From an uncultured Candidatus Saccharibacteria bacterium (GTDB lineage Bacteria > Patescibacteriota > Minisyncoccia > UBA6257 > 2-01-FULL-56-20), in NCBI GenBank assembly GCA_964387675.1, contig CAYLWL010000002.1:22514-86513 (forward strand): a stretch of 64,000 bases of DNA, in the 5' to 3' direction. A model generated the notes under the pieces. The model saw nothing but the letters and a program-made list of their open reading frames with translations, had not been told where the DNA came from and searched no databases. Positions 3,745-63,003 of this stretch are shown here, in pieces; the first letter of the stretch is position 1, and the number at the start of each line of letters is the position of its first letter. A program made the translations under genes and the position numbers.

Positions 3745-3783
3745 TTATTAGAATCTAGAATCTAGAAAATAGAAAGTAGAATT
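3745..3783. repeat. TAGAA-family hairpin arm (left arm flanking four-helix-bundle gene copy 1)
   Basis: ttattagaatctagaatctagaaaatagaaagtagaatt. The inverted partner is at 4147-4188. Confidence 0.7.
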
Positions 3784-4128
3784 ATGAGTAATACAAAATC
3801 TTTTAAAGATTTAATTGTATGGCAGAAAGCGCGGAGTTTGGCGGTTGCGGTATATAAACTTTCTGAACAATTTCCTAACGTAGAGCTATATGGCCTAACA
3901 AGTCAAATGCGTCGCGCGGCCATTTCCATTTCTTCCAACATCGCCGAAAGTTACCACCGTTTTCATAGAAAAGAAAAACAGCAGTTTCTTTCTATCGCTT
4001 TTGGCTCCGGCTCGGAACTAGAAAGCCAAATAGAAATCGCCAAAGTTTTATTTCCAAAGCTGGATTATCGAGAAAGTGAAGAATTATTGTTGGAGGTTAT
4101 GAAAATACTAAATAATTTTCTACAATGA
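3784..4128 (+). CDS. four-helix-bundle protein (23S rRNA intervening-sequence protein / DGR Avd-like family), copy 1
   Basis: 114 aa. WQKARSLAVAVYKLSEQFPNVELYGLTSQMRRAAISISSNIAESYHRF matches the S23-ribosomal/IVS four-helix-bundle family. Flanked by inverted TAGAA repeats. Confidence 0.8.
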   Translation: MSNTKSFKDLIVWQKARSLAVAVYKLSEQFPNVELYGLTSQMRRAAISISSNIAESYHRFHRKEKQQFLSIAFGSGSELESQIEIAKVLFPKLDYRESEELLLEVMKILNNFLQ

Positions 4129-5558
4129 TCAAAATCGAAAAATTAAAAATAGTTCTTCTACTTTCTATTTTCTATTTTCTACCTTCTCGTAAGCGGGGGC
4201 AGTCCACGATTGAGATTTTGATCGCGGTGACGATTCTGACCGCGGTTTTGACGAGCGCCGCCGCGCTCATTTTCGGCAGCCAATCGCTCTCGGTTGATTC
4301 CGCGGAAAGTAATCAGGCATTGCGTCTCGCCGAACAGGGCTTGGAGGGCGTCAAAAATCAGGCCAGATACGACTTCCTCAACATCGTTTCGAGCACCGTG
4401 ACGCAGGGTGAGTTCACGAAAAACATCATTGTCTCGAATGTAGGCGCGAACACGAAGCAAGTGGTAAGCCGCGTTACGTGGAGCACCGATCCGCAGAGAA
4501 CCCAGCAAGTCGAACTCGTGACGCTTGTGACGGATTGGCGCGGCGTGCAGGACACCGGCGGAGACACGGGGAGCGGCGGCGGTGGCGGCGGCGCTTCTGG
4601 CGACTGGTGCAATCCCGCAACCCTCGGCACGATCGATTTGGGATCGGGTGAGTCGGCGACGGGCATCGATGTGATCGCAACAACGACCTATATGACGGCA
4701 GTCGCTTCCTCCCCGAGCAAGAAGGACTTTTTCATCGTTGATGTTTCCAATTCCAGCACTCCTTCCATTATCGGGTCCATAGACACCGGGCCGGGACTCA
4801 ATGCTCTGGACGTGACGGCAAACTACGCTTATGTCGCGAGCGACGACAGCTCCAAGCAATTCCAAGCCATCGACGTCAGCAACAAGACCAGCCCGGTTCT
4901 CGTTGCATCCACCACTCTTACGAGCAATTCCGCCGTTGGACGGAGTATTTTTTACCATAATCAAAAAGTATATATCGGCACGGACGACAATAGTGGAAAC
5001 GAATTCCAGATTATCGACGTGGCCACTCCCGCAACCCCCGTGATTTTGGGAAGAGCTTCTTTGGATGAAGATGTGAATTCCATTTACGTGAGCGGGAACA
5101 AGGCATATCTTGCAACATCCGATACGTCGAAAGACGTGCAGATTTTCGATGTGTCGACTTCATCCGCGCCCGCGCTTCTTGGCACGTATGACATTTCGGG
5201 TGCCGGAGAAACGAAATGGCTGTATGTGGTTGGCACGAAAATGTATGTGGGCAGAGAAACCGGAGGAGATGAACTTTATGTATTGGATATTACGAATGCC
5301 ACTTCGGTGTCGGTGTTGGGCCATAAGGCGATCGGCAAAACGGTGAACGCGATTACAGTGCGCGGCAATTACGCGTTCCTTGCCACCTCCGACCCGAACA
5401 ACGAGCTCAAGATATTCGACGTTTCCAATCTTTCAAATATCACTTCCTGCAGTAACTTCAACTTTCCCAACATCGCGACCGCCGTCGATTTCGACGCCAA
5501 TCTGGTGTACACCGCCGTGCGATCGAACGACGGCCTGCGCATCGTGACATCGCAATAA
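4125..5558 (+). CDS. prepilin-like N-terminus fused to an LVIVD-repeat beta-propeller domain protein
   Basis: N-terminal KRGQSTIEILIAVTILTAVLTSAAALIFG is a pilin-type G/x-T-x-E plus TM. A Gly-rich linker (GGDTGSGGGGGGASGD) is followed by at least six repeats of the pattern xxIxDVSNxSxPxxxG (FIVDVSNSSTPSIIGS, QAIDVSNKTSPVLVAS, QIIDVATPATPVILGR, QIFDVSTSSAPALLGT, YVLDITNATSVSVLGH, KIFDVSNLSNITSCS). These are typical of LVIVD repeats. True start codon uncertain. Confidence 0.65.
   Translation: MIKIEKLKIVLLLSIFYFLPSRKRGQSTIEILIAVTILTAVLTSAAALIFGSQSLSVDSAESNQALRLAEQGLEGVKNQARYDFLNIVSSTVTQGEFTKNIIVSNVGANTKQVVSRVTWSTDPQRTQQVELVTLVTDWRGVQDTGGDTGSGGGGGGASGDWCNPATLGTIDLGSGESATGIDVIATTTYMTAVASSPSKKDFFIVDVSNSSTPSIIGSIDTGPGLNALDVTANYAYVASDDSSKQFQAIDVSNKTSPVLVASTTLTSNSAVGRSIFYHNQKVYIGTDDNSGNEFQIIDVATPATPVILGRASLDEDVNSIYVSGNKAYLATSDTSKDVQIFDVSTSSAPALLGTYDISGAGETKWLYVVGTKMYVGRETGGDELYVLDITNATSVSVLGHKAIGKTVNAITVRGNYAFLATSDPNNELKIFDVSNLSNITSCSNFNFPNIATAVDFDANLVYTAVRSNDGLRIVTSQ
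4147..4188. repeat. TAGAA-family hairpin arm (right arm); also encodes N-terminus of the following pilin-like ORF
   Basis: tagttcttctactttctattttctattttctaccttctcg is the reverse-complement partner of 3745-3783. It translates in frame as VLLLSIFYFLPSR preceding KRG|QSTIE. Confidence 0.7.
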
Positions 5559-9328: not shown

Positions 9329-9398
9329 GGTATTGAAATTATTTTATCTCTAATTCTTCCACTAAGGCAACTTCTGATGGAACTGCCCTTCGACGGGC

Positions 9399-10560: not shown

Positions 10561-11871
10561 ATGAGGTTGCGGGTTATTTTGGGAATAGTTGCTCTCGGCG
10601 CCATATTTTTTTTGGTTTTTGTGCCGCGCGTGGTTATTATCGCGCCCGTTGAACTTGCGAAAGTCGCCGTGAAATCGGCCGCTTCCGTTCTCCCCGGCAT
10701 TCCGGAAGCGATCGTTCCAGAGTCGAAACAAGGCCAGTCGAAAATATCGGGAACATCGGATTTGCCCAATCAGCCGCCGCTCGCAAACCCGCCGGATGTC
10801 GCAAAGGGGATCTATGTGACCGGTTGGTCGGCGGGTTCGCAGTCGAGAATAAGCTCGCTCATCGCGCTTGTGAAGCGCACGGAAGTAAACGCGATGGTGG
10901 TGGATATCAAGGATTATTCGGGCAATGTTTCGTACAGAACGGGGCTTCCGGAAGTTGTCGCGGCGGGCGCGGAAGGAGAAATCCGCGTCGCTCAGCCGAA
11001 TGCCCTCATCAAACGGCTTCACGACGAGCATATCTACATCATCGGGCGCATCACCGTGTTCCAGGATCCCATTTTGGCGAAGGCGCATCCCGAGTGGGCG
11101 CTTCAAAACAAAGTGACCGGCAAAACATGGACAGATAGCAAAAAACTTTCCTGGATGGATGCGGCCGCCAAGCCCGTTTGGGATTATACTATTGCTATCG
11201 CCAAGGATGCTTTCGCGCGCGGCTTCGACGAAATTCAATTCGATTATGTGCGGTTCGCCTCCGACGGCGCGCTCGGAGAGATCGATTATCCGTTTTGGGA
11301 CGCGAAAACGCCGCGGCACAAAGTCATCGCCGAGTTTTTCAAGTATCTGCGGGACAGCTTGCCGGGCAAGAAGATTTCCGCCGATCTTTTCGGTCTTGCG
11401 GCAGTTGATACCTGGGATGACCTGGGAATAGGCCAGGTTATTGAAGACGCCTACAAAAACTTCGATTACGTTTCGCCGATGGTGTATCCTTCGCACTTCG
11501 CCGCGGGAACGCTTGGCTATAAAAGCCCCGCCCAGCATCCGTACGAAATCGTAAAGTATTCGATGGAGCAGGCGCTCGCGAGGTTAGCAAAGAGCAAAGA
11601 GCAAAGAGCAAATAGTTCTTCTACTATTATTATCACAACATCATCCGATCAATTCGCTATCGGCCCTTTGCCCTTCGCTGCGAAGTTACGCCCGTGGCTT
11701 CAGGACTTCAATCTCGGAGCAACCTATAACGCGGAGATGGTGCGCAAGCAGATCCAGGCGACCTATGACGTTTTCCTGAACGGCACTTCGAGCGATCCTT
11801 CCAGATTCGGCGGCTGGATACTCTGGGATCCCGCGAATACGTACACGGAAGGAGCGTTGGAGCGAGGATGA
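10561..11871 (+). CDS. secreted/membrane-anchored hypothetical protein, possibly GH-like TIM-barrel (DUF4015/GHL10-type) family
   Basis: N-terminal TM/signal (ILGIVALGAIFFLVF). Motif block GIYVTGWSAGS...VNAMVVDIKDYSGNVSY recalls the COG1306 putative glycoside hydrolase family. Contains the in-frame repeat insertion LAKSKEQRANSSSTIIITTSS (11581-11640). Confidence 0.4.
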   Translation: MRLRVILGIVALGAIFFLVFVPRVVIIAPVELAKVAVKSAASVLPGIPEAIVPESKQGQSKISGTSDLPNQPPLANPPDVAKGIYVTGWSAGSQSRISSLIALVKRTEVNAMVVDIKDYSGNVSYRTGLPEVVAAGAEGEIRVAQPNALIKRLHDEHIYIIGRITVFQDPILAKAHPEWALQNKVTGKTWTDSKKLSWMDAAAKPVWDYTIAIAKDAFARGFDEIQFDYVRFASDGALGEIDYPFWDAKTPRHKVIAEFFKYLRDSLPGKKISADLFGLAAVDTWDDLGIGQVIEDAYKNFDYVSPMVYPSHFAAGTLGYKSPAQHPYEIVKYSMEQALARLAKSKEQRANSSSTIIITTSSDQFAIGPLPFAAKLRPWLQDFNLGATYNAEMVRKQIQATYDVFLNGTSSDPSRFGGWILWDPANTYTEGALERG

Positions 11872-15227: not shown

Positions 15228-15235
15228 AGAAAAAA

Positions 15236-15332
15236 GAAATGAGATATGAGAAACGAGGAACGAAAAGGAGTTCCCGATTGCACGAAACGTTCGTAGTTCC
15301 CAATCTCTCATTTCTAATTTCTCATCTCTAGA
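15236..15332. repeat. ATGAGA-family ORF-less hairpin element
   Basis: gaaatgagatatgagaaacgaggaacg ... caatctctcatttctaatttctcatctctag inverted arms around a 38-nt loop. Confidence 0.75.
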
Positions 15333-15335
15333 CAC

Positions 15336-26309: not shown

Positions 26310-26312
26310 CCA

Positions 26313-27635: not shown

Positions 27636-27817
27636 GAATCACCTCTTGGTTATCAAGCGAAGCTGGGTGGATTATAGACGGTCTCAATGATTTTGTCAAC
27701 GACCAAATGAGTTGTTCTGTTTCAATTCGAGGGAATTGGTATAATAAACTAGCAAAGTGCTAAGAGCTAATAGCTGGGGGTTTATCGTCAGCGTTAAAAC
27801 GATTTGCCCTTTGCTCT

Positions 27818-28234
27818 TTGCCATTAGCCGCAACTATGGACCAACCCTCTCAATCATTTGAACATGAAGCCCTCGAGGCCGATATTAAAGCCCTTGCGCA
27901 GGAAGTCGAGAAACATCGCGAACTTCCGGAGAATAAAGGCGTGAGCGGGCAGGAGTTGTTAAAGAAAGCAATCCGTGCCTTGCCGCCGGTTTCAACCGCG
28001 ACAGAGCCCGTCTCAAAACCCTCACGGCCGAGTCCGCTCCCGCAGTACGCGCAAAGCGCCTCGCCGGAAGTCCGTCTTGAAATCGAGTACTTGATTGACT
28101 TGGCTTTCCACGCCGGTATCGGTAAGGCCTCGGCGGAAGCGAAGAAATCCCCCGATTTCGTGCAAGACGCTTTTCATGACGCCTTGGCCGGAAAACTGTA
28201 CCCGATGTTTCAGGAGAGGGGAATACTTAAATAG
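27818..28234 (+). CDS. hypothetical protein
   Basis: 138-aa ORF, acidic helical. Preceded by a ctttgctctttgcc repeat. Confidence 0.35.
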   Translation: MPLAATMDQPSQSFEHEALEADIKALAQEVEKHRELPENKGVSGQELLKKAIRALPPVSTATEPVSKPSRPSPLPQYAQSASPEVRLEIEYLIDLAFHAGIGKASAEAKKSPDFVQDAFHDALAGKLYPMFQERGILK

Positions 28235-28265: not shown

Positions 28266-28637
28266 ATGAGCAATGAAAAATTTATTTTTGAAGATTTAAG
28301 GGTTTATCACGGGGCATTAAAACTTTCAGTGGAGCTTACTAAGCTGGCTACGAAATTTCCACACGACTATTCGAGAATACAAAATCAATTAATTGGAGCA
28401 GCTATTTCTGTTCCCTTGAATCTCGCCGAGGGTTCTGGAAGGGAAAGCGATAAGGATAAAAAGAATTTTTATAGAATTAGTAGATCATCTATTTTTGAAC
28501 TCGTGCCTCTTATTGATATAATTTACGAACTAGGACTCATAGGAAGCGACAAGCGAGATGAAATTCGTCACGAAGTTGCGGAACTTTCGCGAATTGTTTC
28601 CACCTTAATGAAAAACAAAGTTTCTCAAAAGTCCTAA
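28266..28637 (+). CDS. four-helix-bundle protein (23S rRNA IVS protein / Avd-like), copy 3
   Basis: MSNEKFIFEDLRVYHGALKLSVELTKLATKFPHDYSRIQNQLIGAAISVPLNLAEGSGR. Confidence 0.8.
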   Translation: MSNEKFIFEDLRVYHGALKLSVELTKLATKFPHDYSRIQNQLIGAAISVPLNLAEGSGRESDKDKKNFYRISRSSIFELVPLIDIIYELGLIGSDKRDEIRHEVAELSRIVSTLMKNKVSQKS

Positions 28638-28662
28638 TTTCTCATTTCTAATATCTCATCTC
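28625..28662. repeat. ATGAGA-family hairpin arm (right arm)
   Basis: cctaatttctcatttctaatatctcatctctaaat. The same right arm recurs at 59630-59665 and 36765-36780. Confidence 0.7.
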
Positions 28663-28667
28663 TAAAT

Positions 28668-32218: not shown

Positions 32219-33508
32219 CTAGCCCAATCTATCGTTTTGAATAAATATCCATAATCCTCGGAGCCAAATTCTTATGGCCCTCCAAAACGGCATAATCGAA
32301 AGGAGATAATTTAATTCAACAAGTCCCTTGATGACCCAGCCGTCGAAGCCGGGGATGATCCACGACCCGATTTTCGCGATCGCGTATTTTCCGCCGACTG
32401 GCACAATGTAGGGATATTCGCGCGGCGCGTAGTTCGTGATTCTTGCTTCATACTTCCTGCTTCCTGCTTCTTGTTTCTTAATCTCCTCGATTACATTGTG
32501 TGCCACCACGTCTGCCTGCACAATCGCGGCTCGGGCAACTGCTGGAGTTGGCTTGCCAGTCGCGGAATCGTAAAAGCAGACACCGTCTCCCAATCCGTAA
32601 ACCATCGAGCGCAATTTAAGATCCGGCGTTTGCGGGAGGCATTCCATTCCTCCGCCAACGACCGGTTTGCCGTGCGCTTCGGTGTGCAGGGGCAGTTTCG
32701 TAAGTACCCGAGGCGATTGTATGCCTCCTGCCCAGACAAGCACGTCAAAAGCGATTTTCTTGCCGCTTTCTAATGCCACTTCGTTTTTGCCTGCCGATAC
32801 GATCTTTTCACCGGGCATAATTTCCACACCGAGCTTCCGTAATCTTTTTTCCGCGAGTGAAATTACTTTGGGGTGCAATCCTCCGAGAATCGAGGGTTGG
32901 GCCTCTACAATTAAAATATTAAGTTGGCATTCGGTTTTGAGCTGACCCTCTAATTCTCTGCGCCAGGATTTTAACTCGCCGGCCAGCTCCACACCAGTCG
33001 GGCCGCCGCCGCCAATCACAATTTTTACCGGCCCCCCTTTGCTTTCCGCCAGATTGCGGATGGCGTCTCTCATCATGATCGCATCCCGAAATGTTTTGAG
33101 CGGCAAAGAATTCTCTTCAAGTCCCGGTATGCCGAAATAATTGGTTTCCGAGCCAAGCGCTATCACGAGAAAGTCGGCGCATAACTCCTGACCATTATTC
33201 AGGTGGATGTCTCCCTCAAGCGGATCCATCGAAAGAACTTCGGCTTGGACAAAACGAACCCCTGTATTTTTTATGAGAGATTCGATGCGGTATGTCGCAA
33301 CTTCGTGGAGGCGGCACAAATTGGCCGTTTCCTGGGACGTGGTCGCGACTTCGTAGAGGAGGGGGGTGTAGGTTTGGTGCTCATTTTTATCCACCAAGAT
33401 CACCTCGTACTTGTTGAGGAGTTTCAGGGATTTCAACTTTTTCGATATCAGAGACGCCGCTCTTAATCCGCCAAAGCCGGCGCCCAAGACGACAACTTTT
33501 TTTGTCAT
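32219..33508 (-). CDS. ndh: type II NADH dehydrogenase (NDH-2) / pyridine nucleotide-disulfide oxidoreductase
   Basis: KKVVVLGAGFGGLRAA (FAD Rossmann), a second Rossmann KIVIGGGGPTGVELAGEL, C-terminal membrane-anchor-like tail. Confidence 0.75.
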   Translation of the reverse strand: MTKKVVVLGAGFGGLRAASLISKKLKSLKLLNKYEVILVDKNEHQTYTPLLYEVATTSQETANLCRLHEVATYRIESLIKNTGVRFVQAEVLSMDPLEGDIHLNNGQELCADFLVIALGSETNYFGIPGLEENSLPLKTFRDAIMMRDAIRNLAESKGGPVKIVIGGGGPTGVELAGELKSWRRELEGQLKTECQLNILIVEAQPSILGGLHPKVISLAEKRLRKLGVEIMPGEKIVSAGKNEVALESGKKIAFDVLVWAGGIQSPRVLTKLPLHTEAHGKPVVGGGMECLPQTPDLKLRSMVYGLGDGVCFYDSATGKPTPAVARAAIVQADVVAHNVIEEIKKQEAGSRKYEARITNYAPREYPYIVPVGGKYAIAKIGSWIIPGFDGWVIKGLVELNYLLSIMPFWRAIRIWLRGLWIFIQNDRLG

Positions 33509-36680: not shown

Positions 36681-37305
36681 TAATACAAACAGTTGGTAAT
36701 TCAGGCGATCGCTCTTGCGTGCGTAGCACGCAGAAAATGAGGTATGAGATATGAGAAATTAGGAACGACCTAATATCTCAAGGGAGAAGCCCGTTCTCAT
36801 TTCTTGTTTCTTGCGCGCTGCGCGCGCAGGGGAGGAAAGTCCGGACACCGGCGTGCGTGGCACGCAGCACGGGGCAAAGGGCAAATCGCAAAGGGCAGTC
36901 GGTTTAACCGAACTCTTTGCTCTTGGCTCTAAGCTATTTGCTGCGCGCTGCGCGCGCAAGCGTAGCGGCTAACAGCCGTCGTCCGCAAGGATAGAGGTGC
37001 GAGCAGAGACGCCGCGTGGCGAAAGCTTTACGCGGGGACCCAATCCTAAGCTCGTTGGTCTAGTCCTGCCATAGGGATAAAAAAGCAGGAGTGAAACGGC
37101 TAAATCCTTACAGGGTGTAAGGCCGTACTCCGATGTTACGCATCGGTTTGTGCCGCATTGAGCCAAAGAGTAATCGATGGCCCAGATAAATGATCGTCAG
37201 AGTGTTCCCGAATCCCGAATTACTTACGAATATACGAATTCGTATATTCGTGTAGATTCGTAATTAGCGAATACTCCACAGAATCCGGCTTACGAATTGC
37301 CAACG
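36681..37305 (+). ncRNA. rnpB: RNase P RNA (bacterial type), unusually long because of inserted repeat hairpins
   Basis: P4 5' strand GGAGGAAAGTCCGGAC at 36831-36846. P4 3' strand ACAGAATCCGGCTTA at 37278-37292. P1 pairing gttggtaattc (36681-36691) with gaattgccaac (37295-37305). Terminator immediately 3'. Confidence 0.75.
36733..36811. repeat. ATGAGA-family hairpin located inside rnpB at the P3 position
   Basis: gaaaatgaggtatgagatatgagaaattaggaacgacctaat...gttctcatttcttgtttc lies between the P1/P2 5' strands and the P4 5' strand. Confidence 0.65.
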
Positions 37306-42469: not shown

Positions 42470-42528
42470 GCACTCCTCCTATTCGGACACGGAGAACTCC
42501 CTCTAGTATGCCTCAAGTACCGCAAAAA

Positions 42529-43101
42529 TCAAGCGTGTTTATCGATTCTTTCAACATAATCCCCGGTTTCGGTGTTGATTCGTATGACATCCCCTTGATT
42601 TATGAAAAGGGGAGCCGAGACCTTCGCGCCGCCCTCGAGCGTAACCACTTTCGTTCCGCCCTGGGCGGTGTTGCCGCGTATCGCCGGCGGCGCTTCGGCA
42701 ACTTCAAAATCCATTTTGATCGGAAGTTTGACGTTGATTATTTTTTCACCGAACATCAGCAACTCCACTTTTGTGTTCGGTTTCAGAAATTGTCTCGGTT
42801 CGCCCAATGTCTCTGCGGGTATGGAAAATCTGTTTTTGGGATTATGTTCTTCGGTAAACCAATATTGGTCGCGATGGGCGTAGATGAATATGGCCGGCTT
42901 TTTTTCTGTCTCCGTTTCTTCAAAATAATCGCTCTGCTGGAAGTTGCGGTCCAACACTTTTCCGGTGACGAGATTTCGGATCTTCGTTTGCACCACCGCT
43001 TTGCGCTGTTGCATCCGCAAAAAATGGGACTCCAAGACCTCGTACGGGTCGCCGTCCATGACGAACATTATTCCTTTGGTGAGGTCGGTGTAGGAAAGCA
43101 T
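42529..43101 (-). CDS. efp: elongation factor P
   Basis: MLSYTDLTKGIMFVMDGDPYEVLESHFLRMQQRKAVVQTKIRNLVTGKV... matches EF-P domain I-III architecture. Confidence 0.85.
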   Translation of the reverse strand: MLSYTDLTKGIMFVMDGDPYEVLESHFLRMQQRKAVVQTKIRNLVTGKVLDRNFQQSDYFEETETEKKPAIFIYAHRDQYWFTEEHNPKNRFSIPAETLGEPRQFLKPNTKVELLMFGEKIINVKLPIKMDFEVAEAPPAIRGNTAQGGTKVVTLEGGAKVSAPLFINQGDVIRINTETGDYVERIDKHA

Positions 43102-43110
43102 TGTTTAATA

Positions 43111-43140
43111 AGTGTCAGGTGTCAGGTGTCAGGTGTCAAG
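43111..43140. repeat. GTGTCAG tandem heptamer repeat
   Basis: gtgtcaggtgtcaggtgtcaggtgtcaag directly upstream of the efp start. Confidence 0.8.
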
Positions 43141-43252
43141 CACGACCCCTCCCAAAAAGCTGTTGCAATCAAAAACCGCGCCGATTTCTCGGAGCGGTTT
43201 TTGCGGCGAATGTCGGCTGCTAAAAGCTAATAGCTAAAACCTATCACCTCGT

Positions 43253-43555: not shown

Positions 43556-43572
43556 AATCTTTTTCTGATTCA

Positions 43573-43934
43573 GACCCCATCTCAAAAATAATCATCATAG
43601 TGCTTCAAGTGCTTATTTTTGAGATAGGGTCTCCCTTCGACCTTTCTTTTCTTTCGGTCCATTGACTTCGTTGAGGAGGCGATGCCGAGAATGAATCTAG
43701 GCATCGCCTGAAGTGAGTGGGGGATGGGAGGACTAACCTCCATTGCCGGGTGTTGCCGATCGAAGTTCTGCCAGAGTTTCCGGATTAAGAGTCCGGGCTT
43801 GTGACAGCACCGCCGTTCACCCAAGCACCGCAACCGTGGCCTTTGGTCACGGGGGACGCGCGATTTTTATCAAGGACAGCGCTTATTGTCCCTCACACCC
43901 CACACATTATGAGGATTTCTCCTCAACGAAGTCA
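43573..43934. other. non-coding structured element between rpsP and KH gene: local hairpin plus a 273-bp unit bounded by 17-bp inverted repeats
   Basis: Hairpin accccatctcaaaaata...tatttttgagatagggt (43573-43632). Terminal inverted repeat ttgacttcgttgaggag (43662-43678) / ctcctcaacgaagtcaa (43918-43934). Several internal hairpins. Confidence 0.5.
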
Positions 43935-49420: not shown

Positions 49421-50002
49421 TTAACTTTTTCTTGCAACGACAACGGCAACCATAGTAAGGATGCTGACGAAAAGAGGAAACCAAACTTGTGAAAACCATG
49501 GAACCGGAATCAAGAAAAGGACGTCGGGGGTAAGGAGCGATGAAGGCCAACGAACCGTTGCCCACAAGCCGACGTAGTAAAAAATGTCCCACGCGGCGAA
49601 CGTCCAGAGAAATATCGCCCACCGCTCCCGTAAAGACGCAGTCGCGAGAAGAGCAACGACAAGTAGCATAATCATCGTGGCGGCTTCCCGAAAGAATTCC
49701 AGCACCAGCAAGCTCCTGGGCAGTTCGCCGAGAATTTGGGATTGCTGGTAGATGCCGGCAGAAAGCCGGGCCACATCGGAAAGCGTGCCGCCGTATCCGG
49801 GAAGGAGTCCTACCGCCGCGCGGAGATATACCACAACCGATGCTTCCACGAATCCGAAAGCGATTCCGAACAAACCGGCAAAGGTGAGCGTCCATATTGA
49901 TATGCCGAGTCCTTCCTTTCGCCATAAAGCGTACGCGACAAAGGGAACGGCAAAAAGGAGATTTACCCACCACGGTTTGGCGAAAAGTACGAGTTCGTTC
50001 AT
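49421..50002 (-). CDS. hypothetical polytopic membrane protein
   Basis: About 190 aa from MNELVLF, 6 TM helices. Abuts the topA stop. Confidence 0.4.
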   Translation of the reverse strand: MNELVLFAKPWWVNLLFAVPFVAYALWRKEGLGISIWTLTFAGLFGIAFGFVEASVVVYLRAAVGLLPGYGGTLSDVARLSAGIYQQSQILGELPRSLLVLEFFREAATMIMLLVVALLATASLRERWAIFLWTFAAWDIFYYVGLWATVRWPSSLLTPDVLFLIPVPWFSQVWFPLFVSILTMVAVVVARKS

Positions 50003-52383
50003 CTTTTTGGTTTCGGGGGATTCTCCCCGGCACCAGAAGACTTTTTGTCTTCGGTGCGGCCCGCTTCGCTGGAGCTTAAGCGAGGCGAGGGCTTCGCTCT
50101 CCATTCTTTATATGCGGCGTTGAGTTCATCCTCATTCTCGGGCCGCTTGTTCATCACGAAGGCGCAGTCCGGGAATCTGGTGCAGGCCCAGAACGGCTTG
50201 CCCCGCCCGCGGGATTTTTTCTCGACGATGTCGCCGATTAACTGCTTATCGCTTATCGCTAACTGCTTATCGTCTTTTGCATCGGGCTCTTTGCTCTTTG
50301 CTCTTTGCTCTTTGCAGTTAGGACACTTGAAGCCGGTTTTGTTCCAGATTCTCGAAACGCCTTTGCATTTCGGGTAATCGCTGCATCCCAAAAAGAATCC
50401 AAATCGTCCTCGTTTCACATCCATCGGTTTTCCACACAGCGGGCATCGTTCATCTTTTGTTTTTTCCTGAAGTTCTTTGATTTTTGCCGCTTCTTCGGGC
50501 ATCGGCAGTGTTACTTTGCTTTCGGGATCGGGACAGACCAAAAACTTCCCCATCCGGCCAAACTTCATGATCATCGGCTTGCCGCAATGGGGGCAGGGAG
50601 TGTCGGAAACTTCAGTGTGTTTCAACACACTTTCTTCTTTTTCGGCAAGATGTTTTTTGAACGGAGTGTAAAATTCGCGCATCACCTCCGTCCACTTTAT
50701 TTTTCCTTCGGCTATCGAATCGAACTCTTCTTCGACGTGAGAAGTGAACTTGATGTCCACGATTTCGGGGAAGTGCTCTACCAGGAGATCGTTTACCACC
50801 ATGCCGATTTCTGTGGGGTGATACTTTTTTTCAATCTTCTCAACGTATTCCCGCGCTTGGATAGTGGAGAGTGTCGGGGCATAGGTCGAAGGGCGGCCGA
50901 TGCCTTCCGCCTCGAGTACTTTAATGAGCGTCGCGTCCGTGTATCTCGGCAGGGGCTCCGTGAAGTGTCGGAGAGGATCGATTTTTTTTATCGTGAGCGC
51001 GTCTCCCTCGGCAAGCTTAGGGAGAGATGCTTGGTAGTCCTCGTCGGCTCCGCCAGCCGGCTGATCGTCGCGGCCTTCGGTGTACACTCTTATAAAGCCA
51101 TCGAAGACAACTCTTTGGCCGTTCGCCCGAAACGTTCCGCTCTTGTCGTCGGCGATGACGTCGACCGCCGTCTGTTCCATCTCCGCGGATCGCATCTGCG
51201 AGGCGAGCGTCCGTTTCCAGATGAGGCCATAAAGTCGATTTTGTCCACGGTCTTGAAAAAGGTCACCGCGGCGCGAAAGGTCCGTCGGTCGGATGGCTTC
51301 GTGCGCTTCCTGCGCGCCTTTGGATTTGGCGGTATAGACGCGAGGAACGTCGAGCGCGTATTGCGCGCCGAATTCGTCCGCGATGACGCTTTTTGCTTGG
51401 GCGAGCGCGGACGAGGCGAGGGAAACGCTGTCTGTTCTCATATACGTTATGTGGCCGTTTTCATAAAGTTGTTGCGCGATCACCATGGTCTGCTTCGCCG
51501 AGAATCCTAATTTTCTCGCCGCTTCCTGCTGGAGAGTAGAGGTGGTGAACGGCGGCGCCGGGTTGCGAAGTACGTCTTTGACAGTGACCGATTGGACGGC
51601 ATATTTTTTGTTTTTGAGACGGGATACGATCTTGTCGGCCGAGTCGCCGTCTTTGATATCCATTTTGCCGAGAGATTTTCCGTCGAGCGCCACGAGCCGC
51701 GTCCGGAACGGATTACCTTTCACTCCTTTCGCAAAGTCCGCTTCGACGGACCAATATTCTTCACTCTTGAACTTTTGGATTTCCCGCTCGCGTTCTACGA
51801 TGAGCCGCACGGCAACGGACTGAACGCGGCCGGCAGATAATCCATAGCGAATTTTTCTCCACAAGAAAGGAGAGAGCTCGTAACCCACCATTCTGTCGAG
51901 CACTCTTCGCGCTTGTTGGGCATCAACAAGGTTCATGTCGATCTCCCGCGGGTTTTTAAGGGCCTCCTCGATAGCGGGTTTTGTGATTTCATGGAAGGCG
52001 ATGCGCTCAATCGGCAAAGGGCCGATAGCCGATGGCAAAGGGGCGGACCTTTTGCTCTTTGCTCTTTGCTCTTTGCCGTTCAAGCCAAGGGCTTGAACAA
52101 GGTGCCAGGCGATTGCTTCTCCTTCCCGGTCCTCATCGGTTGCGAGGATAACCCCCTCGGCCTTCTCCATTCTGTTTTGCAAGTTCTTGATGACGTCCTT
52201 CGCCTTCACGGGAATCGTATACGTCGGCGCAAAATCGTGTTCGACATCTATGCCGAACTTGCTTTTTGGCAGGTCGCGAACGTGGCCGTAAGACGATTCG
52301 ACTTCAAAGTTTTTTCCAAGGAACTTGCCGATTGTCTTGGCCTTGGTGGGGGATTCTACGATTACTAATTTCATTTCTTTGCT
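49999..52383 (-). CDS. topA: DNA topoisomerase I with C-terminal zinc ribbons and in-frame repeat-derived insertions
   Basis: MKLVIVESPTKAKTIGKFLG (TOPRIM), YMRTDS active-site Tyr, Cys4 ribbons (CPHCGK...CPLCGK...CPNCKE). Inserts KEQRAKSKRSAP (52048-52075) and KEQRAKSKEPDAKDDKQLAISDKQL (50236-50315). Confidence 0.85.
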   Translation of the reverse strand, partial: SKEMKLVIVESPTKAKTIGKFLGKNFEVESSYGHVRDLPKSKFGIDVEHDFAPTYTIPVKAKDVIKNLQNRMEKAEGVILATDEDREGEAIAWHLVQALGLNGKEQRAKSKRSAPLPSAIGPLPIERIAFHEITKPAIEEALKNPREIDMNLVDAQQARRVLDRMVGYELSPFLWRKIRYGLSAGRVQSVAVRLIVEREREIQKFKSEEYWSVEADFAKGVKGNPFRTRLVALDGKSLGKMDIKDGDSADKIVSRLKNKKYAVQSVTVKDVLRNPAPPFTTSTLQQEAARKLGFSAKQTMVIAQQLYENGHITYMRTDSVSLASSALAQAKSVIADEFGAQYALDVPRVYTAKSKGAQEAHEAIRPTDLSRRGDLFQDRGQNRLYGLIWKRTLASQMRSAEMEQTAVDVIADDKSGTFRANGQRVVFDGFIRVYTEGRDDQPAGGADEDYQASLPKLAEGDALTIKKIDPLRHFTEPLPRYTDATLIKVLEAEGIGRPSTYAPTLSTIQAREYVEKIEKKYHPTEIGMVVNDLLVEHFPEIVDIKFTSHVEEEFDSIAEGKIKWTEVMREFYTPFKKHLAEKEESVLKHTEVSDTPCPHCGKPMIMKFGRMGKFLVCPDPESKVTLPMPEEAAKIKELQEKTKDERCPLCGKPMDVKRGRFGFFLGCSDYPKCKGVSRIWNKTGFKCPNCKEQRAKSKEPDAKDDKQLAISDKQLIGDIVEKKSRGRGKPFWACTRFPDCAFVMNKRPENEDELNAAYKEWRAKPSPRLSSSEAGRTEDKKSSGAGENPPKPKR

Positions 52384-54725: not shown

Positions 54726-54768
54726 CAGTGGCAGACCTGCCTGCCGGCAGGCAGGTCTGCCTGCCGGC
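54726..54768. repeat. GC-rich palindromic repeat (same family as 18622-18685)
   Basis: cctgcctgccggcaggcaggtctgcctgccggcaggcagggcg. Confidence 0.75.
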
Positions 54769-54828
54769 AGGCAGGGCGCTTGTTGACCCCGCACCTTCGG
54801 AGGCGTATTATTTTAGGAATCGATGCAA

Positions 54829-55806: not shown

Positions 55807-56082
55807 TTCTAGAACCCATCTCAAAATACCGCGAGCCGCGATAGAGGCCAATGTCCGCGAGGCCGCGGAGCGAGGACGAAGGTGTACCTTGTGGTACTCC
55901 GAGTCCGAAGCGACAATGGCCTAGTGGAAATTGGTCCTATCCCGAAGGGTTTTCGCTATTTTCTCCGCCCGCTGCGTTACGGCTCGGTCGCGGTGCATAA
56001 AGCACGGCTCTCTCGCCAAGCCTTGCGGATCGGAGAAAATAGCTGAAAACGCGACTTCGTGGTATTTTGAGATGGGTTCTAG
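55807..56082. mobile_element. 276-bp non-coding MITE-like element with 22-bp perfect terminal inverted repeats, next to tRNA-Ile
   Basis: tctagaacccatctcaaaatacc (55808-55830) / ggtattttgagatgggttctag (56061-56082). Nested IR cgctattttctcc/ggagaaaatagc inside. No ORF. Confidence 0.55.
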
Positions 56083-58158: not shown

Positions 58159-58590
58159 ATGCTATTGGGCGAATATCAACACAATTTAGACAACAAAGGT
58201 CGAGTGGCGATCCCGGCGAAGTTCAAAGATCGGCTCGCACCGGGGGCTATTATCACGCGCGGTTTAGACAACTGCCTTTTCGTTTTTGCGAGCAAGGAGT
58301 GGGAGGCGTTGGCCCAAAAATTGGTGGCATTGCCCCTCGCTCAGGCCAATTCGCGCGCCTTCGTGCGTTTGATGCTTGCCGGAGCGTGCGACGTCAATCT
58401 CGACAATCAATCGAGGATTCTGATTCCCGATTATTTGAGACAATACGCCGGACTCGAGAAGTCGCTCACCATCGCCGGCTTGTATAATCGGGTGGAAATT
58501 TGGGATTCGTTCCGCTGGGCCGAGTACAAGAAAAAAACGGAAGGAGCATCGGAGGAAATAGCGGAGAAGCTCGGCGAACTCGGAATTTAG
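58159..58590 (+). CDS. mraZ: transcriptional regulator MraZ
   Basis: MLLGEYQHNLDNKGRVAIPAKFKDRL; duplicated DXXXR MraZ halves. Confidence 0.85.
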   Translation: MLLGEYQHNLDNKGRVAIPAKFKDRLAPGAIITRGLDNCLFVFASKEWEALAQKLVALPLAQANSRAFVRLMLAGACDVNLDNQSRILIPDYLRQYAGLEKSLTIAGLYNRVEIWDSFRWAEYKKKTEGASEEIAEKLGELGI

Positions 58591-58668
58591 TATCAAGTGT
58601 CAAGTATCACGTATCAAGCGGTAAAAAATCTTGACACATGACACCTGATACATGACACATCAACCCGT
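58591..58668. repeat. GTGTCA/TGACAC-family inverted-repeat hairpin between mraZ and rsmH
   Basis: tatcaagtgtcaagtatcacgtatcaag...cttgacacatgacacctgatacatgacacatca. The right arm encodes MTHQ of RsmH. Confidence 0.7.
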
Positions 58669-59566: not shown

Positions 59567-59665
59567 TTAGAAATGAGAAATGAGACATGAGACATGAGGA
59601 GCAAGAAACGAGACGTTGGCGATGCTGAACGACCTAATTTCTCATTTCTAATATCTCATCTCTAT
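59567..59665. repeat. ATGAGA-family ORF-less hairpin element between rsmH and ftsL
   Basis: ttagaaatgagaaatgagacatgagacatgagg...gaacgacctaatttctcatttctaatatctcatctcta. Confidence 0.75.
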
Positions 59666-59670
59666 TTATT

Positions 59671-61646: not shown

Positions 61647-62945
61647 ATGAACTTTTTTACAAAAACTTTGCGGTGGATGGTCAAGCGCTTGGCCCAGCTT
61701 GCGGTCTGGCGCTATCGGCCGGGAATCATCGGCATCACCGGAAGCGTGGGGAAGACCTCCACAAAGCTCGCCGTGCAGGCGGTGCTCGGCGGAGAGCGGA
61801 GAGTCAGGGCTTCGGCCGGGAACCTGAACAGCGACCTGGGCCTCCCGCTCACTATTTTGGGTGACTGGAGCGAAAAAGAGCTTGCGCTCGTGAGTCGCGA
61901 TCAACCGCCGCACACGGCGAGGATCAGGAAGCTGTTCTTTTGGGCAAAAGTGATACTCTCTTCTTTCTGGAGAGTTCTCTTTGCCGCGAGATCGAGCTAC
62001 CCTGATATTCTGGTGTTGGAATACGGCGCGGATAGACCGGGGGATTTGAAGTACTTGCTCGGCATCGCGCGGCCCAATATAAGCGTCATTACCGCGATAG
62101 GCGACATACCGGTTCATGTGGAGTTTTTCGCCGGACCGGACGACGTGGCTCGCGAGAAGGCGCGACTTATCGAATATCTGCCGTCGGCGGGCTTCGCGGT
62201 CTTAAACCGCGACGATGATTCGGTGATGAACCTGAAAGACAGGACGCGGGCGCACGTGATCACGTTCGGTTTCGCCTCCGATGCCGACGTGCGCATTTCA
62301 CGGTTTGAGAATCGCACAGAAGGAGACGTGCCGGCGGGAATTTCTTTTAAGCTGGAATACGGAGGGAGTTTGGTGCCGGTGCGGCTTGACGGTGTCTTCG
62401 GCAAGGCCCAAAGTTACGCGTCCGCCGCGGCCGCGGCGATCGGTTTGGTGTTTGGGTTAAATCTGGTGAAAATTTCGGAGGCATTGAAGAAATACGTGCC
62501 GGCGGATTCGAGAATGAAACTTGTGCCCGGCATCAAGCACACCCATCTCATTGATGATTCGTACAACGCGAGCCCCTTATCGATGCACGCGGCGCTCGAT
62601 ACGCTCAAAAGTTTGCCTGCCAAGCGCAAAATGGCCGTGTTGGGAGATATGCTTGAGATAGGAAAGTACGCGATTGAAGCCCATGAACGCGCGGGCCGCC
62701 TGGCCGGAAAATTCTTGGATGTTCTGATTACGGTCGGGCCCCGGGCGAAGTTTATCGCGGAGGAAGCGCGCAAATCCGGCATGAGGAGAAACAAAATCTA
62801 TTCGTTCGACACCGCGGATGCCGCCAAACGAGAAGTGCAAAACTTGATGAAAAAAGGCGATCTTGTTTTAATCAAGGGGTCGCACGCGATGGAACTCAAT
62901 AAGGTGGTGGAGGAAGTAAAACAGTATCTAGTATCTAGTATCTAG
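61647..62945 (+). CDS. murF: UDP-N-acetylmuramoyl-tripeptide--D-alanyl-D-alanine ligase
   Basis: IIGITGSVGKTSTK, NLNSDLGLPLTIL (MurF signature). murE is not present between ftsI and murF. Confidence 0.8.
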   Translation: MNFFTKTLRWMVKRLAQLAVWRYRPGIIGITGSVGKTSTKLAVQAVLGGERRVRASAGNLNSDLGLPLTILGDWSEKELALVSRDQPPHTARIRKLFFWAKVILSSFWRVLFAARSSYPDILVLEYGADRPGDLKYLLGIARPNISVITAIGDIPVHVEFFAGPDDVAREKARLIEYLPSAGFAVLNRDDDSVMNLKDRTRAHVITFGFASDADVRISRFENRTEGDVPAGISFKLEYGGSLVPVRLDGVFGKAQSYASAAAAAIGLVFGLNLVKISEALKKYVPADSRMKLVPGIKHTHLIDDSYNASPLSMHAALDTLKSLPAKRKMAVLGDMLEIGKYAIEAHERAGRLAGKFLDVLITVGPRAKFIAEEARKSGMRRNKIYSFDTADAAKREVQNLMKKGDLVLIKGSHAMELNKVVEEVKQYLVSSI

Positions 62946-63003
62946 TATCTAGAAACTAGAATCTAGAATTTCGGTCATTTTAACTACTAAATTCTAGATT
63001 CTG
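62924..63003. repeat. TAGAA/CTAGTAT-family repeat cluster; first units encode MurF C-terminus
   Basis: cagtatctagtatctagtatctagtatctagaaactagaatctagaatttcgg...aaattctagattctg. Translates to ...KQYLVSSI*. Confidence 0.7.

What the first reader, a model, noticed from the sequence alone, without database searches (positions are those of the whole stretch)
50236..50315. In-frame CTTTGCT/GCAAAGA microsatellite-derived insertions inside topA, recurring in other genes and in rnpB
topA carries ctttgctctttgctctttgctctttgc twice (50280-50315 and 52048-52075; protein KEQRAKSKE / KEQRAKSKRSAP) and the adjacent gcttatcgcttatcgctaactgcttatcg (protein DKQLAISDKQL). The same 7-mer tandem motif occurs in frame in the 10561-11871 ORF (11585-11612, AKSKEQRAN), in non-coding DNA at 27790-27830, and inside rnpB at 36875-36930. 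A smaller in-frame heptamer duplication (cttcctgcttcctg, 32448-32486) sits in ndh. Essential genes are therefore colonised by a short tandem motif without loss of reading frame.
Basis: seen in the sequence. Interest (0 to 1): 0.5.

Follow-up and report, generated by a model that had tools for sequence, protein, structure and literature searches.

The report
Heptamer-repeat hairpins inside essential CPR genes
A tiny-genome groundwater bacterium (Candidatus Liptonbacteria) is riddled with about 30-base arrays of 7-base repeats, often paired into hairpins, and some copies sit in frame inside loops of essential genes such as topoisomerase I and inside the RNase P RNA; this repeat type is known from cyanobacteria but I found no report of it in this group.

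Summary
CTTTGCT/GCAAAGA arrays lie in frame at two sites in topA (49999-52374, minus strand), in a DUF4015 gene, at 27803-27822, and in a divergent 613-nt rnpB. The 14-mer gives 11 hits against 0.03 expected.

It is one family within a genome-wide pattern. There are 43 period-7 arrays against 0-3 in shuffles. Most have about 4 copies, 34 of 43 fall into five unit families, and 27 of 40 lie outside coding sequence.

Arrays often pair as inverted arms of imperfect hairpins. TopA site 1 and the DUF4015 site share both arms, including an identical 17-mer, so they are copies of one dispersed palindromic element. rnpB carries a third, inverted copy.

Both TopA sites are length-hypervariable, low-pLDDT loops. 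Related genomes carry arrays of different units at these sites, while the DUF4015 array is conserved in three genomes. In confirmed genes, coding copies are stop-free and nearly always read in the hydrophilic frame set.

The closest known things are cyanobacterial STRR heptamers (also found in rnpB), the general heptamer SSR excess in bacteria, TAACTGA repeats, and in-frame Rickettsia palindromic elements.

Verdict: a new variant of a known kind. How the arrays arise and spread is inferred, not shown.

The parts
49999..52374 (-). topA (type IA DNA topoisomerase I), the host gene
   Evidence: Pfam finds Toprim, Topoisom_bac and three Zn_ribbon_Top1 domains. It is 100% identical to Ca. Liptonbacteria MBI4087456.1.
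50286..50315 (-). topA site 2, array 1. (GCAAAGA)x4.3 on the coding strand, read as KEQRAKSKE, in the loop of the last-but-one Zn ribbon.
   Evidence: The closest orthologues have a short loop here. pLDDT is below 50 for residues 696-710.
50244..50272 (-). topA site 2, array 2. GATAAGC/AGTTAGC-type heptamers read as DKQLAISDKQL.
   Evidence: TRF reports period 7, 4.1 copies, 72% matches. It does not pair with array 1 apart from the outer AACUGC/GCAGUU.
52012..52080 (-). topA site 1, an in-frame imperfect hairpin element. The left arm is (GCAAAGA)x3.7 at 52051-52076. The right arm includes GCTATCGGCCCTTTGCC at 52013-52029. It is read as GKEQRAKSKRSAPLPSAIGPLP.
   Evidence: The antisense strand folds at -36.9 kcal/mol (z -4.3) and the sense strand at -26.8. 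The 17-mer is shared with the DUF4015 site. pLDDT is below 50 for residues 101-118.
11586..11672 (+). In-frame copy of the same element in the DUF4015 gene (10561-11871). The left arm is (GCAAAGA)x3.9 at 11586-11612 and the right arm is GCTATCGGCCCTTTGCC at 11656-11672.
   Evidence: The antisense strand folds at -40.1 kcal/mol (z -4.95) and the sense strand at -22.9. The same unit family is present at the same site in L090 and L091.
27803..27822 (+). Short TTTGCCC/CTTTGCT array of the same unit family, in a divergent intergenic region at the 5' edge of an unconfirmed ORF.
36692..37304 (+). rnpB (RNase P RNA, bacterial type A). It is about 613 nt long and has three hairpin inserts.
   Evidence: RF00010 E = 3e-9 but only 34 bits. 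CR-I, CR-V and the P1 pairing can be read directly from the sequence.
36850..36960 (+). rnpB insert 2. The hairpin has a 5' arm (GGGCAAA)x3.7 and a 3' arm of CTTTGCT-type units. It belongs to the same element family as the coding copies but lies in the opposite orientation relative to transcription. It sits after CR-I/P5 and before P8.
   Evidence: It folds at -63.2 kcal/mol with 6 G.U pairs on the RNA strand, against -52.8 on the antisense strand.
36714..36826 (+). rnpB insert 1. This is an extended P3 hairpin with ATGAGAT/CATTTCT-type heptamer arms. It is bracketed by the same GCGTGCGTrGCACGCAG and TGCGCGCTGCGCGCGCA blocks as insert 2.
   Evidence: cmscan places a 103-nt insertion in the P3 loop. 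It folds at -53.4 kcal/mol.
37203..37275 (+). rnpB insert 3. A CGAAT-rich hairpin between the P2 3' strand and CR-V.
   Evidence: TRF finds TCCCGAA x2.1.
32440..32470 (-). (GCAGGAA)x4.4 in a variable loop of the NDH-2-like oxidoreductase gene, read as EAGSRKYEAR. Net change is +2 aa and there is no hairpin.
15228..15335 (.). Example of a gene-less heptamer hairpin (AGAAATG / CATTTCT family) that fills a whole intergenic spacer. Sister copies lie at 26229-26312 and 59567-59670. Other families lie at 5563-5666, 6161-6269, 6650-6745, 58589-58660 and 62923-63003.
3745..4192 (+). PF05635 (23S rRNA IVS protein-like) gene between inverted heptamer arms. Similar cassettes lie at 12612-13032 and 28225-28671.
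   Evidence: (pairs I1 and I4).

Best explanation
The topA arrays belong to a genome-wide population of short heptanucleotide tandem arrays. A typical array has about 4 copies (26-35 nt). There are a handful of unit families per genome, and arrays are frequently paired as inverted arms of imperfect hairpins. They resemble cyanobacterial STRR repeats.

The arrays mainly occupy intergenic spacers and peripheral positions of RNase P RNA.

Inferred origin: arrays arise and are kept homogeneous by slipped-strand replication, which is known to favour 7-nt units in bacteria. They are also copied between loci as composite palindromic elements, either by gene conversion or by an unidentified transposition-like process.

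Inferred filter: when a copy lands or expands inside a gene, selection keeps only those that meet four conditions:
1. They preserve the reading frame.
2. They have no stop codon in any of the three phases that a heptamer array passes through.
3. They are read in the hydrophilic orientation (GCAAAGA reads as KEQRAKS, not SLLFALC).
4. They lie in surface loops that tolerate length variation.

In mRNA contexts the copy is oriented so that the transcript carries the weakly folding strand. In rnpB the strongly folding, G.U-rich strand is the RNA.

The peptides themselves probably have no specific function.
For: **Period-7 excess**
- 38 perfect period-7 runs of at least 14 nt, against about 4 in shuffles. 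Other periods are not enriched.
- 43 TRF period-7 rows against 0-3 in 10 shuffles. The copy-number mode is 4, and 34 of 43 arrays fall into 5 unit families.
- 27 of 40 arrays are non-coding, at a gene edge or in rnpB, although only about 18% of the window is non-coding (p = 8e-12).

**Hairpin architecture**
- Shown: **Dispersal rather than local slippage alone**
- The exact 17-mer GCTATCGGCCCTTTGCC lies next to a (GCAAAGA)n array in both topA and DUF4015, with a 3-mismatch copy in rnpB. Expected matches by chance: 0.19.
- The same unit recurs within other genomes: AGAGCGG three times in the topA of L007, and AACAAGG in both topA and parB of L006.
- The same TopA loops carry unrelated units in different genomes: GCAAAGA, AGTTAAA, AAATCCC, GGACTTA, ACAAGGA and AGCGGAG.

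**Permissive loops**
- Both TopA sites vary greatly in length among 59 orthologues and have pLDDT below 50.
- Site-2 inserts are scattered on an NJ tree.
- The DUF4015 and ndh sites are also variable loops.

**Selection filter**
- In confirmed genes, arrays are read in the hydrophilic orientation, with one neutral exception in L006.
- Internal coding arrays are stop-free on the coding strand. None of the 14 intergenic arrays is stop-free on both strands.
- A TAG-to-CAG change rescues the frame in the prepilin leader at 5637-5666.

**Strand polarity**
-.

**Literature**
- Heptamers are the most abundant long SSR class in most bacterial genomes, and polymerase slippage has been proposed as the cause (Mrazek 2007, as summarised in PMC4679880 and PMC4692102).
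- STRR heptamers occur within rnpB of heterocystous cyanobacteria (Vioque 1997, title cited in PMC2858038).
Against: - No mobilising enzyme, target-site duplication or transposition intermediate was found. Inspection of the flanks of the two exact element copies shows no direct repeats.
- No copy-number polymorphism was seen among the four records, so ongoing slippage is not demonstrated.
- The peaked copy-number distribution (mode 4) is not what simple slippage predicts.
- The L007 AGAGCGG arrays have no hairpin partner and no shared flanks, so not every array is part of a composite element.
- topA site 2 of the window does not form a hairpin.
- The strand-polarity pattern rests on about 12 elements.
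- Gene calls outside 40-62 kb are my own greedy ORFs.
Confidence: 0.7

Rival explanations
1. Pure local microsatellite origin. Each array grew in place by slippage from a chance heptamer duplication in that gene. Nothing is copied between loci, and the similarity between sites is coincidence or convergence under selection for Lys/Glu-rich stop-free units.
For: - Heptamer SSRs are over-represented in many bacteria and are attributed to polymerase slippage (PMC4679880, PMC4692102).
- The GCAAAGA array is common in unrelated metagenome contigs with GC content from 35% to 65%, so the unit is easily generated or tolerated.
- The L007 arrays lack shared flanks.
Against: - An identical 17-mer lies beyond the array in topA and DUF4015.
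- Five loci in 64 kb share one unit family, and 34 of 43 arrays fall into five families.
- Different genomes use different units at the same TopA loop, so selection does not force one unit.
- Copy number peaks at 4 rather than decaying from 2.
Confidence: 0.15
2. A dedicated mobile element. The heptamer hairpins are non-autonomous derivatives of IVS-like cassettes (inverted repeat arms plus a PF05635/Avd-like gene). They move through a single-stranded hairpin intermediate, and insertion into genes and RNAs is an active process.
For: - Three of three PF05635 genes in the window, and one in L090, lie between inverted tandem-repeat arms.
- The cassette is present or absent at different syntenic positions in the window and L090.
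- Gene-less hairpins share the arm family of the cassettes.
- The hairpins have an intrinsic strand polarity with G.U pairs.
Against: - The GCAAAGA family has no PF05635 gene nearby.
- Array-rich loci of other genomes (L007, L022, L057, L068) have no PF05635 gene within 22 kb.
- No transposase, reverse transcriptase or target-site duplication was identified.
- PF05635 has no known mobility activity.
Confidence: 0.1
3. Functional linkers or regulatory RNA structures. The arrays are maintained because the Lys/Glu-rich peptide (for example, for DNA binding in TopA) or the hairpin (for translation control, processing or termination) is useful, and the repetitiveness is secondary.
For: - Hairpins sit exactly in intergenic spacers and around start codons of pilin-like genes, in the window and in L007. 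This resembles TAACTGA repeats upstream of start codons (PMC4679880).
- The DUF4015 array is conserved in three genomes.
- A basic insert in a DNA-binding enzyme is plausible.
Against: - The closest TopA orthologues lack the site-2 insert, or carry chemically different peptides at site 1 such as VKSKKLKVKS and RNSKSQIPNSK.
- The same element encodes the same peptide in an unrelated glycoside-hydrolase-like protein.
- Both sites are predicted to be disordered.
Confidence: 0.05

Closest known systems
Cyanobacterial STRR (short tandemly repeated repetitive) heptanucleotide sequences, including STRRs inside rnpB of heterocyst-forming cyanobacteria (Mazel 1990; Vioque 1997, cited in PMC2858038 and PMC4692102)
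   Same: - 7-nt units in short tandem arrays.
- Several unit families per genome, dispersed at many loci and mostly intergenic.
- Present inside the RNase P RNA gene as an extended helix.
   Different: - The host is a Patescibacteria (CPR) genome, not a large cyanobacterial one.
- The units are unrelated in sequence.
- The rnpB positions are a P3 extension, a site after P5 and J2/4. From my own recollection, not checked here, the cyanobacterial case is in P12.
- Several copies are in frame inside essential protein genes.
General excess of heptanucleotide long SSRs in bacteria (Mrazek et al. 2007, as summarised in PMC4679880 and PMC4692102), and GGGAATC repeats of Xanthomonas/Nostoc (PMC4692102)
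   Same: - A specific over-representation of period 7.
- Intergenic bias.
- Occasional inverted pairs.
- Length and sequence variation between close relatives.
   Different: - The literature as summarised in PMC4679880 names large-genome taxa (Burkholderia, Cyanobacteria, Actinobacteria, Xanthomonas) among the richest. Here the host is a CPR bacterium, a group with streamlined genomes.
- Copy number is tightly centred on about 4.
- Composite elements share non-repeat sequence.
TAACTGA direct repeats of marine Beggiatoaceae, Cyanobacteria and Bacteroidetes (MacGregor 2015, PMC4679880)
   Same: - Heptamer arrays of 2-6 copies.
[quoted passage not shown]
- A minority lie inside ORFs at permissive positions, with orientation dictated by stop codons.
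   Different: - That system has one dominant unit. Here there are many genome-specific units.
- Here the arrays are paired into hairpins and sit in internal loops of essential enzymes.
Rickettsia palindromic elements (RPE) (reviewed in PMC10969869)
   Same: - Palindromic dispersed elements inserted in frame into unrelated housekeeping genes.
- They encode the same peptide in different proteins, at positions compatible with the fold.
   Different: - RPEs are about 150 bp and are not built from tandem heptamers.
- No sequence relationship was tested or is expected.
- The elements here are 70-110 bp with heptamer-array arms.
23S rRNA intervening sequences carrying a PF05635 ORF
   Same: - A long inverted-repeat stem with a PF05635 gene in the loop.
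- Insertion into a structural RNA helix, here in rnpB but without the gene.
   Different: - The cassettes here lie between protein genes, not in the 23S rRNA. The rRNA is not in the window.
- Excision by RNase III was not tested.
Borg tandem repeats that create intrinsically disordered regions (PMC9879509)
   Same: In-frame tandem nucleotide repeats add disordered, hydrophilic segments to proteins, as well as forming intergenic arrays.
   Different: From my own recollection of that work, not re-read here, Borg in-gene repeat units are multiples of three and longer. Here the unit is 7 nt, so the frame is kept only per 3 units and all three phases are read.

Membership tests
STRR-type heptanucleotide repeats | Unit of 7 nt repeated in tandem | tested here: met
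   43 TRF period-7 arrays, and period 7 alone is enriched.
STRR-type heptanucleotide repeats | Dispersed at many loci, a few unit families per genome, mainly intergenic | tested here: met
   Five families hold 34 of 43 arrays. 27 of 40 arrays are non-coding, at a gene edge or in rnpB.
STRR-type heptanucleotide repeats | Described in filamentous, heterocyst-forming cyanobacteria with specific units (from my own knowledge: CCCCAGT, TTGGTCA, CAACAGT) | tested here: not met
   The host is Ca. Liptonbacteria and the units are different. This is therefore an analogue, not a member in the strict taxonomic sense.
STRR-type heptanucleotide repeats | Presence inside rnpB as a dispensable helix extension | tested here: inconclusive
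   Heptamer hairpins lie inside rnpB at three peripheral positions. Whether they are dispensable or processed cannot be tested with sequence tools.
Long SSR / contingency locus (phase variation) | Copy number varies between cells or strains and switches expression or reading frame | tested here: not met
   TopA is identical in four records. A change of one unit would frameshift an essential gene. The sample is small.
MITE | Terminal inverted repeats | tested here: met
   Inverted arms of 23-45 nt with 71-88% complementarity.
MITE | Target-site duplications and a cognate autonomous transposase | tested here: not met
   No direct repeats flank the two exact element copies (sequences). No transposase was found next to any copy. 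PF05635 is not a known transposase. The check was by inspection only.
Rickettsia palindromic elements | Palindromic element inserted in frame in unrelated genes, encoding a conserved peptide | tested here: met
   topA site 1 and DUF4015 share both arms, and the peptide segments AKSKEQR or KEQRAKSK ... AIGPLP.
Rickettsia palindromic elements | Sequence membership in one of the RPE families of Rickettsia | not tested
No relationship is expected.
Bacterial RNase P RNA type A (RF00010), for the rnpB claim | Score at or above the Rfam gathering threshold | tested here: not met
   34.4-34.6 bits against a gathering score of 100.
Bacterial RNase P RNA type A (RF00010), for the rnpB claim | Universally conserved CR-I and CR-V sequences (P4), a P1 closing helix, and P8/P9-type hairpins | tested here: met
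   - CR-I GAGGAAAGUCCGG at 36832-36844.
- CR-V ACAGAAUCCGGCUUAC at 37278-37293.
- P1 pairing GUUGGUAAUUC / GAAUUGCCAAC.
- GCGGCUAACAGCCGU aligned to P8.
- E = 3e-9.

The most novel reading that the evidence does not exclude
Heptamer-array hairpins could be a previously unrecognised class of small mobile palindromic elements in Patescibacteria, and perhaps in some Bacteroidota. On this reading each genome maintains its own unit families. Copies spread through a single-stranded G.U-paired hairpin intermediate, possibly helped by the PF05635/Avd-like genes that sit inside the largest copies. They insert into intergenic spacers, structural RNAs (rnpB, like rRNA intervening sequences) and protein loops. 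In this way they would repeatedly rewrite the same permissive loops of essential enzymes such as TopA.
Probability: 0.15. Interest if true: 0.75.

Novelty: new variant of a known kind. Interest (0 to 1): 0.5.

Why it matters
- **Reach of heptamer repeats.** The heptamer-repeat phenomenon known from large cyanobacterial, Xanthomonas and Beggiatoa genomes also operates in a CPR bacterium, a group with streamlined genomes. It reaches into essential genes and the RNase P ribozyme.
- **Annotation.** rnpB falls far below the Rfam threshold because of the inserts, and protein loops encoded by arrays could be mistaken for lineage-specific functional linkers.
- **Protein evolution.** Arrays are a ready source of disordered segments, and a 7-nt unit forces all three phases to be read.
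- **A natural experiment.** The same TopA loop is occupied by different arrays in sister genomes, which offers a way to study how such repeats arise, spread and are filtered.
- **A testable link.** The link to PF05635 cassettes is a concrete lead on the unexplained biology of 23S rRNA IVS proteins.

Tried and rejected
- **Assembly artefact.** Rejected. TopA is identical in four records from different samples and assemblers, and orthologues from other studies carry arrays.
- **Copy-number variant in the 90% cluster.** P0121 is 14 aa longer, but only because of an upstream start codon.
- **Cyanobacterial origin of the window.** This was my first guess from the STRR-like repeats. It was rejected by the protein matches to Ca. 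Liptonbacteria.
- **Link between array density and a nearby PF05635 gene.** Among 88 loci there was only one extra PF05635 hit, and it lies in an array-free locus.
- **topA site 2 of the window as a hairpin.** Only the outer 6 bp pair. The analogous L006 site does form one on the antisense strand.
- **ndh array as a hairpin.** No; z is about 0.
- **Metagenome hits of the GCAAAGA array as TopA or DUF4015 orthologues.** No BLASTP match to any window protein. The hosts are other genes.
- **Literature.** Searches for heptamer repeats or SSRs in Patescibacteria/CPR found nothing relevant. Vioque 1997 itself is not held in the library.
- **Gene calls.** The + strand ORF 42508-43230, which seemed to contain a GTGTCAG array, is spurious. 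efp is on the minus strand there, so that array is intergenic.
Full report
**1. The observation**

The sequence is as described.
- On the + strand, 50286-50315 is (GCTCTTT)x4.3, a perfect array, and 50244-50272 is a GCTTATC-type array.
- 52051-52076 is (TTTGCTC)x3.7 and 11586-11612 is (AGCAAAG)x3.9.
- Related arrays lie at 27803-27822 and 36872-36930, and TTCCTGC x4.4 lies at 32440-32470.
- CTTTGCTCTTTGCT with up to one mismatch occurs 11 times against 0.03 expected.

- 49999-52374 (minus strand) has Toprim, Topoisom_bac and three Zn-ribbon domains.
- 10561-11871 is DUF4015.
- 32219-33508 is a Pyr_redox_2 (NDH-2-like) protein.

The window comes from a Candidatus Liptonbacteria MAG (GCA_016204365.1, contig JACQKV010000013.1). 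The identical TopA was assembled independently from two further sequencing runs, and a fourth record differs only in its start codon. The arrays are therefore not assembly artefacts. No copy-number variation is visible in this small sample.

**2. rnpB**

Rfam finds no RNase P RNA at gathering threshold. A permissive scan gives RF00010 at 34 bits, E = 1e-8 to 3e-9. Reading the sequence shows:
- CR-I GAGGAAAGUCCGG at 36832-36844.
- CR-V ACAGAAUCCGGCUUAC at 37278-37293.
- A P1 pairing between 36692-36702 and 37294-37304.
- A terminator just downstream.

The gene is about 613 nt because of three hairpin inserts:
- A 103-nt extension of P3 (36714-36826).
- A 110-nt hairpin after CR-I/P5 (36850-36960).
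- A 70-nt hairpin between the P2 3' strand and CR-V (37203-37275).

The first two inserts are bracketed by the same GC-rich blocks and have heptamer-repeat arms. The second has (GGGCAAA)n paired through G.U wobble with CTTTGCT-type units.

**3. The wider pattern**

Period 7 is singled out.
- There are 38 perfect runs of at least 14 nt against about 4 in shuffles, while periods 5, 6 and 8-15 are at background.
- TRF gives 43 period-7 rows against 0-3 in ten Markov shuffles.
- Copy number peaks at 4 (19 arrays) and lengths cluster at 26-35 nt.
- 34 of 43 arrays fall into five unit families. The GCAAAGA family, with five loci, is one of them.
- 27 of 40 merged arrays are intergenic, at gene edges or in rnpB, although only about 18% of the window is non-coding (p = 8e-12). 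Gene calls for 40-62 kb were corrected with the NCBI annotation.

Arrays commonly come as inverted pairs that fold into long imperfect hairpins.
- These fill entire spacers at 15228-15335, 26229-26312, 58591-58651 and 59567-59670.
- They enclose the start codons of pilin-like genes at 5625, 6208 and 6694.

**4. What the coding copies are**

topA site 1 is itself a hairpin. Its left arm is (GCAAAGA)x3.7 and its right arm is CCTTTGCCATCGGCTATCGGCCCTTTGCC. The antisense strand folds at -36.9 kcal/mol (z -4.3) and the sense strand at -26.8.

The DUF4015 site has the same left arm and, 43 nt downstream, the same right arm.
- The 17-mer GCTATCGGCCCTTTGCC occurs exactly twice in the window, at these two sites and on the coding strand of both. 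A 3-mismatch copy lies in rnpB on the opposite strand. Expected matches by chance: 0.19.
- An alignment of the copies shows both arms conserved.
- Both proteins consequently contain AKSKEQR or KEQRAKSK followed by AIGPLP.

These are therefore copies of one dispersed palindromic element, not independent local duplications. topA site 2 has the same left array followed by a second array of GATAAGC-type units. It does not form a hairpin.

**5. Comparison with orthologues**

*TopA.* Among 59 TopA orthologues both sites are the most length-variable segments. AlphaFold gives pLDDT below 50 for residues 101-118 and 696-710, flanked by confident elements.

At site 2 the three closest relatives have a 10-residue loop, C-LASxERxEKP-GD, so the window's 26 residues are a derived insert. 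Longer inserts occur in scattered branches of an NJ tree, which implies several gains.

At the DNA level, the same loops in other genomes hold arrays of about 30 nt with unrelated units:
- Site 1: AGTTAAA x4.3 (L088), AAATCCC x4.4 (L089), and an in-frame GGACTTA/AAGTCCT hairpin (L007).
- Site 2: ACAAGGA plus CCCATGT, which are wobble-complementary on the antisense strand at -38.9 kcal/mol (L006), and AGCGGAG (L007).

Within those genomes the unit recurs elsewhere. AGAGCGG occurs three times in the topA of L007, and AACAAGG occurs in both topA and parB of L006.

*DUF4015.* This site behaves differently. Two other Liptonbacteria-like genomes (65% and 73% protein identity) have the same unit family, GCAAAGA/GCAAATA, at the same place. 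L090 also has the complementary arm. There is no net length change. This copy is old and conserved.

*ndh.* The array occupies a variable loop with a net gain of 2 residues and forms no hairpin.

**6. Signs of selection**

A heptamer array is read in all three phases, so it must be stop-free in each.
- Internal coding arrays are stop-free on the coding strand. None of the 14 intergenic arrays is stop-free on both strands.
- In the prepilin leader at 5637-5666 the third unit reads ATTCCAG instead of ATTCTAG. This removes the TAG that a perfect array would put in frame.
- In confirmed genes the arrays are read in the hydrophilic orientation, with one neutral exception: KEQRAKS rather than SLLFALC, AESGERR, TRNKEQG.
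- In metagenome contigs the same GCAAAGA array lies in frame, hydrophilic side, in an aminotransferase, a DNA methylase, a Mur ligase, a GHMP kinase, a Memo-like protein and a 5'-3' exonuclease. The hydrophobic reading LCSLLFA appears at signal-peptide-like N-terminal positions.

**7. Strand polarity**

The hairpins contain G.U pairs on one strand only.
- In rnpB the strongly folding strand is the RNA: -53 against -44 kcal/mol for insert 1, and -63 against -53 for insert 2.
- In mRNA contexts the strongly folding strand is antisense. Examples are topA site 1, DUF4015, L090, L006, L007 and the spacers at 15228, 26228 and 58589.

I read this as selection against stable structure in mRNA, combined with protein-level choice of orientation. 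An intrinsic single-strand intermediate cannot be excluded.

**8. Distribution**

Near topA in 80 GTDB species representatives, perfect period-7 runs of at least 17 nt are absent from most loci. They are frequent in several Patescibacteria (L022, L024, L026, and L057 from Woesebacteria). Unexpectedly, they are also frequent in a Prevotella MAG and a Bacteroidaceae MAG. One close relative (L005) has almost none. The trait is patchy.

**9. Mechanism**

*Shown:*
- The period-7 excess.
- The hairpin pairing.
- The shared composite element.
- The location of coding copies in variable, low-confidence loops.
- The stop-free and orientation filters.

*Inferred:*
- Arrays arise and stay homogeneous by slipped-strand replication. 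This is the published explanation for the general heptamer excess (Mrazek 2007, via PMC4679880 and PMC4692102).
- Composite copies spread by gene conversion or an unknown transposition-like process.
- Coding copies are survivors of selection rather than functional modules.

*Not explained:*
- The constant size of about 4 copies.
- The replacement of unit families at one TopA loop among sister genomes.
- The way arrays appear to overwrite a loop without changing its length.

**10. Relation to known systems**

The closest analogues are:
- Cyanobacterial STRR heptamers, which also occur in rnpB (Vioque 1997, cited in PMC2858038).
- The TAACTGA repeats of Beggiatoaceae, Cyanobacteria and Bacteroidetes. 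These lie upstream of start codons, and a few lie in ORFs at permissive positions (PMC4679880).
- The in-frame Rickettsia palindromic elements (PMC10969869).

This case combines features of all three in a phylum where I found no report. It fails the strict definitions of each: the taxon and units of STRR, the target-site duplication and transposase of MITEs, and the sequence families of RPE. I therefore rate it a new variant of a known kind, with moderate interest.

Noticed in passing
window 3745-4192, 12612-13032, 28225-28671; L090 11402-11995: Every PF05635 (23S rRNA IVS protein / Avd-like four-helix-bundle) gene seen lies between inverted tandem-repeat arms of 35-40 nt. Gene-less hairpins with the same arm family fill other spacers. 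In the syntenic contig L090 the cassette sits at a different position, where the window has only a 4-nt spacer. It therefore behaves as an insertion/deletion unit, like an rRNA intervening sequence placed between protein genes.
   Followed up: partly
window 5563-5666, 6161-6269, 6650-6745; L007 1357-1443, 3399-3486, 4174-4264: Start codons of pilin-like (N_methyl) and neighbouring genes lie in the loops of heptamer hairpins. The 3' arm is translated as part of the prepilin leader (ILDSRFQILDSR). No Shine-Dalgarno-like sequence is obvious in these spacers. This may reflect translational control or simply tolerated colonisation.
   Followed up: partly
window 36692-37304: rnpB is about 613 nt and scores only 34 bits on RF00010 (gathering score 100). 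Standard annotation pipelines would miss it.
   Followed up: yes
window 18617-18683 and 54730-54775: A different GC-rich palindromic repeat, CTGCCTGCCGGCAGGCAGG (period 20 in TRF), occurs at two distant sites.
   Followed up: no
window 43572-43632 and 55809-56082: Inverted repeats share a CCCATCTCAAAA core. One pair has a 15-nt loop. The other has 222 nt between its arms and lies just upstream of tRNA-Ile. This is possibly another small palindromic element family.
   Followed up: no
L068 (Prevotella sp. MAG) 3240-9567; L073 (Bacteroidaceae MAG) 12262-15518: Dense heptamer arrays of up to 8-9 copies (AAATGAG, GAATTGA, TGAAGAA, AAGGTCT) lie near topA in two Bacteroidales MAGs. The period-7 phenomenon is therefore not confined to Patescibacteria.
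   Followed up: partly
window 14124-14154 and L090 16194-16221: An array at the boundary of two orthologous genes is conserved in sequence between the two Liptonbacteria genomes (CATGACACTTGATACTTGA). Most orthologous spacers instead have hairpins with different units.
   Followed up: no
L104, L106, L132, L158 (metagenome contigs): The GCAAAGA array read on its other strand (LCSLLFALCSLLFA) occurs 17-44 residues from the N-terminus of long ORFs, where a signal peptide or membrane anchor would be. One host is a CarboxypepD_reg/DUF5686 protein.
   Followed up: partly
L007 19271-21880: The ParA/CbiA-like gene next to parB in this relative carries an intein with a LAGLIDADG domain.
   Followed up: no
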